DNA of 64,000 nt from Promethearchaeia archaeon (GTDB lineage Archaea; Asgardarchaeota; Lokiarchaeia; Sigyniarchaeales; SOKP01): positions 1 to 64,000 of the forward strand of contig JAHQWL010000102.1 of the NCBI GenBank assembly GCA_029856155.1, read 5' to 3'. Both the position numbers and the translations under genes were made by a program. Below the pieces are notes generated by a model. The model was given only the letters and a program-made list of their open reading frames with translations. It searched no databases and was not told the DNA's origin. Positions 12,460 through 42,075 of the stretch are shown here, piece by piece (within the stretch, counting starts at the first letter, position 1; the number at the start of each line of letters is the position of its first letter).

Positions 12460-13653
12460 ATGACTTATATTGATAAAGATAAGTTACGAGCATTATTCAA
12501 ATGGTATATGCAAGAAGTAGGAGATATTTTAGTTTCTGTTCTTTTAGTTGACCGAGACGGATTAATAGTTAATATTTTAACGAGAGATTCTGATAAATTA
12601 GATGAAAAAAAATTTGTTGGGGCATTTAGTTCTTTAGTTGAATTAGTACTAAAAAAATTAACACAAGATTTTGATCTTGGAACCTTTGGTGCGGGCACAT
12701 TTGATACAAATAAATACAGATTTATTTTTTGTGAATCTGGATCGGAACATGTTCTAGTCTCAATACTCAATCATACTGCCTTAGTTGATGATATATTTCC
12801 ATATACTTATTTAACTGCTGATAAAGTAGCAAGGATTATCGATGGAGAACTACCAGTCAGCCCTGTGATTCCAAAAGTAAAAAGAGATACTGAACTTGAA
12901 AAAATTAAGCGAAAAATGGAATATTATCAAAGTAAGCCTCACTCACCTGAGTATGTCTATAAACTTTCTTTGATCGGAGATGGTGGAGTGGGAAAAACTA
13001 GTATGGCTCAAAGATATGTTCATGGAATATTTAATGCAGATTATAAAGCAACCATTGGTACTTATATCTCTAAGAAAGAATGTGAATTTAAAGAATTGGG
13101 AACGTCTATCAGATTTATGATATGGGATTTAGCGGGACAAAGTCAATTCGAAAGATTATGGCCAGATTATTTAACAGATTCTCGTGTGGGAATCATAATT
13201 TTTGATATAACAAACCTCGAATCATTTAAGCATATAAAGAAATGGCATGATATAATTAAAAGAGTTGCATTGCCTCATATTGTTTTAATTCTTGTTGGAA
13301 ATAAAGTTGATTTAAAAGATTCTAGAGTAGTATCAACGGAAAAAGGTATGAATTTAGCCAAAGAATTAGGCATTTATTATATGGAAACCTCTGCAAAGAC
13401 TAATCAAAATATTGAAGAAGTTTTTGAATGGATTGCACTCCAAATTATCAACCAAAATATTGAAGATGTAAAAGACAATTTATTTGATAAACAAATTGAA
13501 GAAGGAATTAAATATGTAATTTCAAGTCCGCAATTAAAGATATTAAATCAATATTTTACTAAACAACTTGATTATTGTATTGGAAAGAGTGGTACTACAG
13601 AAATTATTAAGTATTTAGATATATTAAAAGCAATTGAAAAAAATAAGTTATAG
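12460..13653 (+). CDS. Roadblock/LC7-like domain fused to Rab-like small GTPase
   Basis: N-terminal LLVDRDGLIV roadblock pattern; GDGGVGKT, WDLAGQ, GNKVD, ETSAK. Confidence 0.85.
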   Translation: MTYIDKDKLRALFKWYMQEVGDILVSVLLVDRDGLIVNILTRDSDKLDEKKFVGAFSSLVELVLKKLTQDFDLGTFGAGTFDTNKYRFIFCESGSEHVLVSILNHTALVDDIFPYTYLTADKVARIIDGELPVSPVIPKVKRDTELEKIKRKMEYYQSKPHSPEYVYKLSLIGDGGVGKTSMAQRYVHGIFNADYKATIGTYISKKECEFKELGTSIRFMIWDLAGQSQFERLWPDYLTDSRVGIIIFDITNLESFKHIKKWHDIIKRVALPHIVLILVGNKVDLKDSRVVSTEKGMNLAKELGIYYMETSAKTNQNIEEVFEWIALQIINQNIEDVKDNLFDKQIEEGIKYVISSPQLKILNQYFTKQLDYCIGKSGTTEIIKYLDILKAIEKNKL

Positions 13654-40785: not shown

Positions 40786-41082
40786 ATGAGTAAAGAAGGA
40801 GAAAAAAAAGAAAATTTCATTGAAAATTTGAATAAACAATTTACTGATTTCGTTGGAAGTGTTTTTGGTGAATCTGGAAAAGATTTTATAGAAGAAACTT
40901 CTGAAAAAATAAAAGAATTCAGTTCTGGTGCTATCGAAAAATTTATGGAATTTAGTGATGATGTAATTGAGAAACTCAACTTAAATGAAAATGAACAAGT
41001 AATTAAAGCTCGAGATAGCGTAGAAGATTTGTTAAAACAAGCAGGAATCTTAAAAGAAAGCGATGAAGAAGAGGAGTTTTAA
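40786..41082 (+). CDS. Small acidic helical hypothetical protein
   Basis: 98-aa ORF with plausible start and composition. Confidence 0.65.
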   Translation: MSKEGEKKENFIENLNKQFTDFVGSVFGESGKDFIEETSEKIKEFSSGAIEKFMEFSDDVIEKLNLNENEQVIKARDSVEDLLKQAGILKESDEEEEF

Positions 41083-41158
41083 TTCGTAATTTAGAATTTA
41101 GGATTTAAATTTTTATTATTTCTTTATTTATTTTAATGGCGAATATTTAGAAAAAAAA

Positions 41159-41431
41159 TCATAATACCTTAGCATTCTTTAAAAAAGATTTAACTTCTTC
41201 TTGAGTTGCATTAAATAATTCTGAAATTACCATTAAAGATGTATTTTCATCCATACCCAAATTAGTATAATCTTGATATAATTTTATCCAAGTCTCTTTT
41301 TGGGTATATTTATCTGGATGTTCTGTTTGAATATGTTGCCAATATGGGTGTTGTTAAGCCGTGAAAAATAATTTTTTTCACGATAGCTCAATACCACAAA
41401 AAGGGCAAAACCTTGACTCATCTTCACTCAT
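41159..41431 (-). CDS. 80-aa C2H2-type zinc-finger protein, intron-containing (missed by the ORF track)
   Basis: Exon 1 41431-41384 MSEDESRFCPFCGIEL; exon 2 41353-41159 QHPYWQHIQTEHPDKY...FLKNAKVL*; CxxC...HxxxxH finger forms only after splicing. Confidence 0.8.
41354..41383 (-). other. 30-nt BHB intron in the zinc-finger gene
   Basis: Outer helix GGUAUU/AACACC, central helix GAGC/GCUU, bulges UA^U and AA^C, 9-bp inner stem CGUGAAAAA/UUUUUCACG; two in-frame stops. Confidence 0.85.
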
Positions 41432-41562
41432 ATAACTTATCCCTTAAGTTTTTAATCAATTATTTTTTATTTGAATAATTGTAATAAACCAATATTAGTA
41501 TAAAAAACTTATAATTTCAAAAAGATAAAAATTTCGGATTTAGAGATTTTTTTTAAAATAAT

Positions 41563-42075
41563 TTATTCCCAGTATTCTTTTAATTCACTGCGTGTAATCT
41601 TTCTTACTTGATCTACAGCCCACACTACATAATGATAACATTTCTTTGTCCAAGTTCCATTTTTCCGATATTCTGTCATACCTTCAGCTTGACTGAAATC
41701 ATACCCACAGAGTTCTGGGCATACTACAGATCCAAATTCCTTCTCAAAATCAGACGCGAACTTAGCTGCTTTTAAATAGACCTCCAACATAATTTCATTA
41801 TCCATTCTTTTATGCCCTCCCATTATTATCCCTATTGCTGCACATCCCCCACAAACGGCACCACAGGCTCCTTGCCATCCGTTCTTTGATTTATAGCCAC
41901 CAAAACTACCCGCTAAAGGAATTGCTAGATTATGAAATATATAATTATCAATTTCTAGAATATCCAGAACACTTGTTAATGTCAGTTCTGCACAACTAAC
42001 TCCCTCTTTTAGTTTGGGTAACAATTCGTTTAATTCTTTAAGTTTTTCATCGAATCGAATATCGATATTTTGCAT
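41563..42075 (-). CDS. C_GCAxxG_C_C family putative redox protein
   Basis: SCAE, GACGAVCGG, FGSVVCPEL, KC motifs. Confidence 0.85.
   Translation of the reverse strand: MQNIDIRFDEKLKELNELLPKLKEGVSCAELTLTSVLDILEIDNYIFHNLAIPLAGSFGGYKSKNGWQGACGAVCGGCAAIGIIMGGHKRMDNEIMLEVYLKAAKFASDFEKEFGSVVCPELCGYDFSQAEGMTEYRKNGTWTKKCYHYVVWAVDQVRKITRSELKEYWE

What the first reader, a model, noticed from the sequence alone, without database searches (positions are those of the whole stretch)
41159..41431. Hidden C2H2 zinc-finger gene split by a near-perfect 30-nt BHB intron
Absent from the ORF track. The intron UCGUGAAAAAAAUUAUUUUUCACGGCUUAA has a 9-bp inner stem, a GAGC/GCUU central helix, UA^U and AA^C bulges and an exon-exon outer helix. 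It separates the CxxC pair from the His pair and contains TGA and TAA in frame. The rest of the 80-aa ORF is intact, which argues for a live gene that depends on splicing. This is the cleanest test case.
Basis: seen in the sequence. Interest (0 to 1): 0.92.

Follow-up and report, generated by a model that had tools for sequence, protein, structure and literature searches.

The report
tRNA-type intron splits zinc-finger gene
A small zinc-finger gene of a Lokiarchaeia-type (Asgard) archaeon is interrupted by a 30-base insert shaped like the introns archaea cut out of tRNAs, and comparison with about 60 relatives indicates it is a live gene that needs mRNA splicing, known so far in archaea for one gene (cbf5).

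Summary
On the minus strand, 41431-41159 reads as an 80-codon frame broken only by a 30-nt insert (41354-41383) that carries in-frame TGA and TAA. [quoted passage not shown]

What is new here is comparative:
- 47 of 52 distinct orthologs in related Promethearchaeota genomes are continuous proteins of 79-83 aa that lack exactly these 30 nt.
- 12 other alleles carry unrelated inserts of 24-48 nt at four positions in the same small gene.
- All 13 alleles share the geometry: a 4-bp central helix (49 of 52 positions paired), two 3-nt bulges, and cuts after the second bulge base that restore the frame. Several changes are compensatory.
- The exons are intact and under purifying selection.
- The genome encodes two EndA paralogs and RtcB.
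- Single-copy rpoN and uL11, and TFS, carry similar inserts with stops.

No RNA evidence could be obtained, so splicing itself is inferred. In this 30% GC genome the BHB shape alone is no commoner than a mirrored control.

First-stage readers flagged similar candidates on other pieces of this genome. I found no paper reporting mRNA BHB introns in Asgard archaea.

Verdict: most likely a real EndA-type mRNA intron (about 0.78). It is a new member of a known but very rare kind.

The parts
41472..41510 (-). Conserved upstream block with a TATA-like TTTTTATA (about 41499-41506); the likely archaeal promoter
   Evidence: The block is conserved in nearly all orthologs in the alignment. Promoter function is inferred.
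41440..41444 (-). AGGGA Shine-Dalgarno-like motif 9-13 nt upstream of the ATG
   Evidence: conserved AAGGGA. Function is inferred.
41384..41431 (-). Exon 1: 16 codons, MSEDESRFCPFCGIEL, carrying the CxxC pair
   Evidence: It aligns to the N-terminus of continuous orthologs.
41390..41395 (-). 5' strand of the outer exon-exon helix (GGUAUU); pairs with 41347-41352
   Evidence: 5 of 6 pairs.
41386..41389 (-). Central helix 5' strand (GAGC, exon sequence); pairs with 41356-41359
   Evidence: 4 of 4 pairs, one of them G-U.
41383..41385 (-). 5' bulge UA^U; predicted cut between 41384 and 41383
   Evidence: The cut coincides with the indel boundary in the ortholog alignment.
41354..41383 (-). 30-nt intron with in-frame TGA and TAA
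   Evidence: It is absent from 47 continuous orthologs and is not repeated elsewhere in the genome.
41360..41382 (-). Inner hairpin: 9-bp stem with a 5-nt loop
41356..41359 (-). Central helix 3' strand (GCUU, intron sequence)
41353..41355 (-). 3' bulge AA^C; predicted cut between 41354 and 41353
41347..41352 (-). 3' strand of the outer helix (AACACC, exon 2)
41162..41353 (-). Exon 2: 64 codons, with the His ligands (HPYWQHIQTEHP) and a three-helix C-terminal domain
41151..41161 (-). TGA stop followed by a run of 8 T; the likely archaeal terminator
   Evidence: Terminator function is inferred.

Best explanation
The locus is a live gene for an 80-aa protein: a C2H2-like zinc finger followed by a small three-helix domain. 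Its pre-mRNA carries a 30-nt archaeal bulge-helix-bulge intron between codons 16 and 17. After transcription, exon 1, the intron and exon 2 fold into an outer helix, a 3-nt bulge, a 4-bp helix, a second 3-nt bulge and an inner hairpin. The splicing endonuclease EndA (two paralogs are encoded, consistent with a broad-specificity two-subunit enzyme) cuts after the second base of each bulge. RtcB then joins the exons (...GAGCUA|CAACAC...) and probably circularises the intron. Only spliced mRNA gives the full protein; unspliced mRNA would stop after 17 codons. Shown here by computation: the insert boundaries, the BHB geometry, its conservation and covariation in other alleles, intact and constrained exons, and the presence of the enzymes. 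Inferred: cleavage, ligation, and the protein's role (a possible DNA-binding role is a weak guess).
For: (1) Orthologs. In 48 of 54 genomes of the genus, and in other families of the order, the gene is found. It is continuous (about 240 nt, no stops) except in G000, G022 and G069. In the DNA alignment G000 differs by one 30-nt block at the predicted place.
(2) Other alleles. G022 and G069 carry 30-nt inserts of unrelated sequence at the same site. Further alleles from GTDB genomes and metagenome contigs have inserts of 24, 25, 31, 31, 30, 30, 29, 48, 30 and 30 nt at four sites.
(3) Shared geometry. All 13 distinct alleles fit one geometry. The central helix is 4/4 in ten and 3/4 in three. The BHB-consistent excision restores the frame and scores far above the next frame-restoring alternative.
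(4) Register. Central-helix positions are paired in 49 of 52 cases in register, against 17-31 of 52 when the 3' strand is slid, with several pair types per position.
(5) Compensatory changes. Central helix: GAGC/GCUU, GCGU/GCGU, GCAU/GUGU, CCAU/GUGG. Inner stem: A-U to G-C (L059 vs L077) and C-G to G-U (L086 vs L088).
(6) Constraint. No other stop or frameshift occurs in any intron-bearing allele. dN/dS of G000 against relatives is 0.03-0.11 in both exons. C9, C12, H23 and H28 are invariant.
(7) Enzymes and copy number. G000 has two intact EndA-domain genes and RtcB, and only one copy of this gene.
(8) Other genes. The only rpoN copy carries a 30-nt insert with TAG and TAA. It is continuous in most relatives and also interrupted in 5 other genus members. 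The only uL11 N-domain match, and TFS, are interrupted too. Essential genes cannot all be dead, so the cell must remove such inserts.
(9) Independent assemblies. The G022-type and L077-type alleles each recur identically in three independent assemblies.
Against: The unconstrained fold prefers a 6-bp helix that absorbs the 3' bulge. The central helix has a G-U pair and the outer helix an A-C mismatch. In this AT-rich genome BHB-shaped hairpins, even frame-restoring ones, are as frequent in a mirrored control topology, so the shape alone is weak evidence. G000's nearest relatives (L010, L038) lack the intron. The insert may therefore be young, and pairwise dN/dS cannot exclude very recent inactivation in G000 alone. 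Only one assembly of G000 itself was available.
Confidence: 0.78

Rival explanations
1. The gene in G000 was recently inactivated. A 30-nt palindromic insertion killed it, and the BHB-like fit is incidental.
For: The nearest relatives lack the insert. BHB-like hairpins are common by chance in this genome. There is no RNA evidence.
Against: 0 of 20,000 shuffles match the in-register pairing. Twelve other alleles at four sites share the geometry, with covariation and otherwise intact frames. Single-copy rpoN and uL11 carry the same kind of insert. Both exons and the upstream block are conserved.
Confidence: 0.1
2. The insert stays in the mRNA and the ribosome hops over it. This is programmed translational bypassing, as in T4 gene 60 or the byp elements of Magnusiomyces mitochondria (comparison from my own knowledge).
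For: The size, the hairpin and an early stop resemble bypass elements. Site-B alleles (CAA, then a stop... CAA) and the G022 allele (GCG ... GCG) happen to have matching take-off and landing triplets.
Against: G000 itself, L084 and L086 have no matching take-off/landing pair in a usable frame. Bypassing does not predict a 4-bp exon-intron helix with 3-nt bulges in fixed register, nor compensatory changes in it. EndA and RtcB are present, and tRNA genes of this genome are intron-rich.
Confidence: 0.07
3. The insert is an assembly or sequencing artefact in the G000 contig.
For: Only one assembly of G000 was available to me.
Against: The insert is a clean 30-nt block with a specific structure. 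The same site carries inserts in G022 and G069. Other alleles recur identically in three independent assemblies.
Confidence: 0.02
4. The insert is some other kind of removable element, such as a self-splicing intron or a DNA-level excision.
For: None specific.
Against: At 24-48 nt it is far too small for a group I or II intron. There was no Rfam match in the window. The sequence is not repeated in the genome.
Confidence: 0.03

Closest known systems
cbf5 pre-mRNA intron of Crenarchaeota (Desulfurococcales and Sulfolobales; PMC2738675)
   Same: It is a short BHB-type intron inside an archaeal protein-coding gene, presumed to be cut by the tRNA splicing endonuclease. It shows lineage-specific presence and absence, and it causes gene-prediction errors.
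   Different: The host gene differs (a small zinc-finger protein, not a pseudouridine synthase) and so does the phylum (Promethearchaeota/Lokiarchaeia). Here there are at least four intron positions within an 80-codon gene, and other genes of the same genome (rpoN, TFS, uL11) appear interrupted too. Splicing of cbf5 was shown experimentally; here it was not.
[quoted passage not shown]
   Same: The hBHBh' geometry, the size range (median 22-23 nt for Asgard tRNA introns), two EndA paralogs consistent with an (alpha-beta)2 enzyme, and repeated gains at sites where the exon can build half of the motif.
   Different: The substrate is an mRNA, so excision must also keep the reading frame. Neither paper reports protein-coding hosts.
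IRE1/RtcB splicing of XBP1 (26 nt) and HAC1 mRNA in eukaryotes (mentioned in PMC13149111; details from my own knowledge)
   Same: A tiny non-spliceosomal intron in an mRNA, cut by a protein endonuclease at structured sites and sealed by an RtcB-type ligase. Splicing decides which protein is made.
   Different: The endonuclease (IRE1, not EndA) and the recognition motif (twin stem-loops, not BHB) are different, and that system is stress-regulated. No regulation is shown here.
Translational bypass elements (T4 gene 60; byps of Magnusiomyces mitochondria; from my own knowledge)
   Same: Short hairpin-forming inserts with stops inside otherwise intact genes.
   Different: Those need matched take-off and landing codons and stay in the mRNA. 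The G000 insert lacks such codons and has BHB geometry.

Membership tests
Archaeal BHB (EndA-type) intron | [quoted passage not shown] | tested here: met
   GAGC/GCUU with bulges UAU and AAC. The unconstrained fold prefers a competing 6-bp helix.
Archaeal BHB (EndA-type) intron | Flanking helices h (exon-exon) and h' (intron) | tested here: met
   The inner stem is 9 of 9 pairs. The outer helix is 5 of 6 pairs with an A-C mismatch.
Archaeal BHB (EndA-type) intron | Cuts in the bulges give a functional, continuous product | tested here: met
   The predicted cuts equal the indel boundaries against 47 continuous orthologs and restore an 80-aa frame.
Archaeal BHB (EndA-type) intron | Structure kept across homologous or parallel introns through compensatory change | tested here: met
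   Across 13 alleles, 49 of 52 central-helix positions are paired in register, against 17-31 when slid. Several double changes occur. The alleles are related, so the counts overstate independence.
Archaeal BHB (EndA-type) intron | Host encodes the splicing endonuclease and the RtcB ligase | tested here: met
   Two PF01974 genes (C13, C52) and one PF01139 gene (C83), all without stops.
Archaeal BHB (EndA-type) intron | Spliced RNA or a circular intron is observed; EndA cleaves in vitro | not testable with these tools
No spliced-form protein was found in the collection.
C2H2 zinc finger | Cys-X2-4-Cys ... His-X3-5-His ligand set | tested here: met
   C9, C12, H23 and H28 are invariant in 34 orthologs. 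The spacing is C-x2-C-x10-H-x4-H, that is 10 rather than the classical 12 between the second Cys and the first His.
C2H2 zinc finger | Beta-beta-alpha fold | tested here: met
   AlphaFold model of the 93%-identical continuous ortholog: short strands at residues 7-8 and 15-16, helix 22-32, mean pLDDT 87.5. This is a prediction only.
C2H2 zinc finger | Match to a curated C2H2 profile above its cut-off | tested here: not met
   Only sub-threshold hits: zf-Di19 in 34 of 34 members (best E 0.0024, below the cut-off) and zinc-ribbon models.
Helix-turn-helix DNA-binding domain (C-terminal three helices) | Structural match to solved HTH domains | tested here: inconclusive
   Foldseek best E is 1.5. 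VIA-align Z is at most 5.3, with transposase, resolvase and repressor HTH domains among many weak rows.
Programmed translational bypass element | Matching take-off and landing codons in the right frame | tested here: not met
   None for the G000 allele. Present by coincidence or otherwise in site-B and G022 alleles.

The most novel reading that the evidence does not exclude
This gene is one visible case of a general habit. In this Lokiarchaeia genus, EndA-type mini-introns (about 24-48 nt) would be gained repeatedly and tolerated in many protein-coding genes, including essential ones (rpoN, TFS, uL11). If so, protein-enzyme mRNA splicing is a routine step of gene expression in close archaeal relatives of eukaryotes, and current Asgard gene catalogues systematically miss or truncate such genes.
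Probability: 0.6. Interest if true: 0.92.

Novelty: new member of a known kind. Interest (0 to 1): 0.8.

Why it matters
Splicing of archaeal mRNA by the tRNA endonuclease is documented for one gene family (cbf5) in Crenarchaeota. Five full-text searches found no report of it in Asgard archaea.

This locus offers a compact, well-controlled test case in the archaeal group closest to eukaryotes. It is an 80-codon gene with a 30-nt intron, dozens of intron-free orthologs as natural controls, and parallel introns at four sites.

If spliced, three things follow:
- Interrupted protein genes and a protein-only mRNA splicing pathway exist in Asgard archaea. This bears on how intron tolerance could arise before the spliceosome.
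- Gene callers mis-handle such genes. Public records show truncated N-termini and contigs read with TAG as Gln. This affects completeness estimates and protein catalogues.
- It gives a natural system for studying how BHB introns are gained at sites where exon sequence can supply half of the motif.

Tried and rejected
- Spliced form in the protein collection: the exon-2 search gave no hit above 92% identity, and no hit equalled any spliced allele.
- Genome-wide structural scan for BHB hairpins (central helix 4/4, inner stem of at least 7-10 bp): counts equal a mirrored-topology control (for example 1243 against 1193 at 9 bp). Adding an open-frame-restoration filter gave no excess either (for example 41 against 41 and 93 against 93). 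I could therefore not estimate how many mRNA introns the genome has, and the motif alone is not evidence.
- Mobile-repeat idea: the intron sequence has no other copy in the genome beyond short A/T-rich words. It shows no similarity to the rpoN or TFS inserts.
- Rfam and ARAGORN on the window: nothing.
- Function: Pfam gave only sub-threshold hits. Foldseek on PDB and VIA-align wide gave only weak matches. The Atlas gave only the protein's own unnamed cluster.
- Picking splice sites by best protein alignment alone mis-set the junction residue in four alleles. I redid it allowing equal-length alternatives.
A 93%-identical continuous ortholog (L002) was used for the fold instead.
- Tree of the local gene block: G022 and G069 are poorly placed because few columns are filled. 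The number of independent gains at site A is therefore not settled.

Full report
**1. Observation**

The minus strand from ATG 41431 to the stop at 41159-41161 is one frame of 90 codons. Only codons 17-26 (41354-41383) break it, with TGA and TAA. The ORF listing sees only fragments.

With their flanks they can form:
- an outer helix GGUAUU/AACACC (5 of 6 pairs);
- a central helix GAGC/GCUU;
- bulges UA^U and AA^C;
- a perfect 9-bp inner stem with a 5-nt loop.

No shuffle of the insert (0 of 20,000) reaches this pairing in register. The free minimum-energy fold prefers a 6-bp UUGAGC/GCUUAA helix by about 2 kcal/mol.

**2. Organism**

The window lies in a 4.1-Mb, 30% GC, 97%-complete genome. Related records are titled Promethearchaeota or Promethearchaeia, that is Lokiarchaeia-type Asgard archaea.

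**3. Orthologs**

A six-frame search found the gene in 48 of 54 genomes of the genus and in other families of the order. Matches are about 240 nt without stops, except in G000, G022 and G069. The DNA alignment shows that G000 differs from the continuous genes by a single 30-nt block at the predicted place.

Among 52 distinct sequences from species genomes, five carry an insert:
- site A, after codon 16: G000, G022 and G069, 30 nt each, with unrelated sequences;
- site B, after HVQ: L059, 30 nt;
- site C, after DYT: L070, 29 nt.

A protein search with exon 2 found no hit above 92% identity. It did reveal odd gene calls: 63-70-aa N-terminally truncated forms and 91-aa forms read with TAG as Gln. 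Their contigs add more alleles:
- site A: 25, 24, 31 and 31 nt;
- site B: one more allele;
- site D, inside HPY|W: 48, 30 and 30 nt.

The G022-type and L077-type alleles each occur identically in three independent assemblies.

**4. Structure across alleles**

For each of the 13 distinct alleles I listed all excisions that give a full-length protein of the right length, then scored BHB geometry. In every case one excision has a 4-bp central helix (4/4 in ten alleles, 3/4 in three), two 3-nt bulges and cuts after the second bulge base. It scores well above the next alternative.

- The inner hairpin varies from 17 to 41 nt, while the motif around the cuts stays fixed.
- Central-helix positions pair in 49 of 52 cases in register, against 17-31 of 52 when slid.
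- Exon codon 15 co-varies with the intron strand: GAGC/GCUU, GCGU/GCGU, GCAU/GUGU, CCAU/GUGG.
- Inner-stem double changes occur between L059 and L077 and between L086 and L088.

The alleles are related, so these counts are descriptive and not a probability.

**5. Is the gene alive?**

- Outside the insert no allele has a stop or frameshift.
- dN/dS between G000 and eight relatives is 0.03-0.11, with synonymous changes dominating in both exons.
- The upstream block with a TATA-like element and an AAGGGA motif is conserved. A run of T follows the stop.
- G000 has one copy only.

On a tree of the local gene block, G000 sits beside intron-free L010 and L038 with moderate support. The site-A intron of G000 is therefore either young or was lost repeatedly elsewhere.

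**6. Machinery and context**

G000 encodes two intact EndA-domain genes and RtcB. A 2026 preprint reports two EndA paralogs in most Asgard genomes and a median tRNA intron of 22-23 nt. ARAGORN finds only 28 tRNAs in G000, half with introns.

I followed earlier notes of this scan and checked other genes:
- The only rpoN match stops at a 30-nt insert with TAG and TAA. Its BHB-consistent removal gives ...CCKRMIVSHVDLIDELL....
- In relatives rpoN is a continuous 189 nt in most genomes. It is interrupted in five other genus members.
- TFS, and the only uL11 N-domain match, are interrupted as well.

Essential single-copy genes with stops imply that the cell removes such inserts.

**7. Limits**

- No RNA data could be obtained.
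- A structure-only genome scan shows no excess of BHB hairpins over a mirrored control, with or without a frame-restoration filter. The case therefore rests on comparison, not on the motif.
- Translational bypassing fits some alleles by matching triplets, but not G000, L084 or L086. It also does not predict the exon-intron helix.

**8. Protein**

C9, C12, H23 and H28 are invariant. The AlphaFold model of a 93%-identical continuous ortholog (mean pLDDT 87.5) shows a beta-hairpin and helix, then three helices.

Only sub-threshold Pfam hits (zf-Di19 in 34 of 34 members) and weak structural matches to HTH-type domains were found. A small zinc-finger nucleic-acid-binding protein is a reasonable but weak guess.

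**9. Literature**

Full-text searches found the cbf5 pre-mRNA intron of Crenarchaeota as the only mRNA precedent (PMC2738675). They also found work on Asgard tRNA introns. They found no report of BHB introns in Asgard protein genes. The library is incomplete, so this is not proof of novelty.

**10. Verdict**

This is most likely an EndA/RtcB-spliced mRNA intron (0.78). It is a new member of a known but very rare kind, in a lineage where it matters.

Noticed in passing
These could be two more mRNA introns 1.5 kb away.
   Followed up: partly
G000:C14:57457-57675 (-) (L089): The only rpoN (Rpo10) gene has a 30-nt insert with TAG and TAA. Relatives mostly have a continuous 189-nt gene, but five other genus members (G001, G008, G016, G018, G024) are also interrupted near the same place.
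   Followed up: yes
G000:C25 about 12731-12820 (+) (L090); G000:C44 about 135950-136050 (+): TFS (…QTRRADEGMT / HFITCLKCG…) and uL11 (two inserts around ASGGPPI) are interrupted by short stop-bearing inserts. uL11_N has a single, N-terminally cut match in the genome.
   Followed up: partly
L021 (G069:C21:17532-17618): About 85 nt downstream of the intron-bearing gene in G069 lies a partial second copy of its C-terminal helices (…SLMVISELFYATKEEIK…). It is an orphan duplicated fragment.
   Followed up: no
L074-L079 and L080-L088 (public metagenome contigs): Public gene calls handle intron-bearing alleles wrongly. Either the contig is read with TAG as Gln, giving a 91-aa protein with 10 spurious residues, or the gene starts inside or after the intron, giving 63-70 aa without the CxxC pair.
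   Followed up: yes
whole genome G000: ARAGORN finds only 28 tRNA genes in a 97%-complete genome, 14 of them with introns. One call has a 529-nt 'intron', and there is a tRNA-SeC. Many tRNA genes are probably hidden by non-canonical introns.
   Followed up: no
window 41563-42075 (-) and 40786-41082 (+): The zinc-finger gene keeps the same neighbours in most relatives: an upstream C_GCAxxG_C_C-family gene on the same strand and a convergent 98-aa acidic protein.
   Followed up: partly
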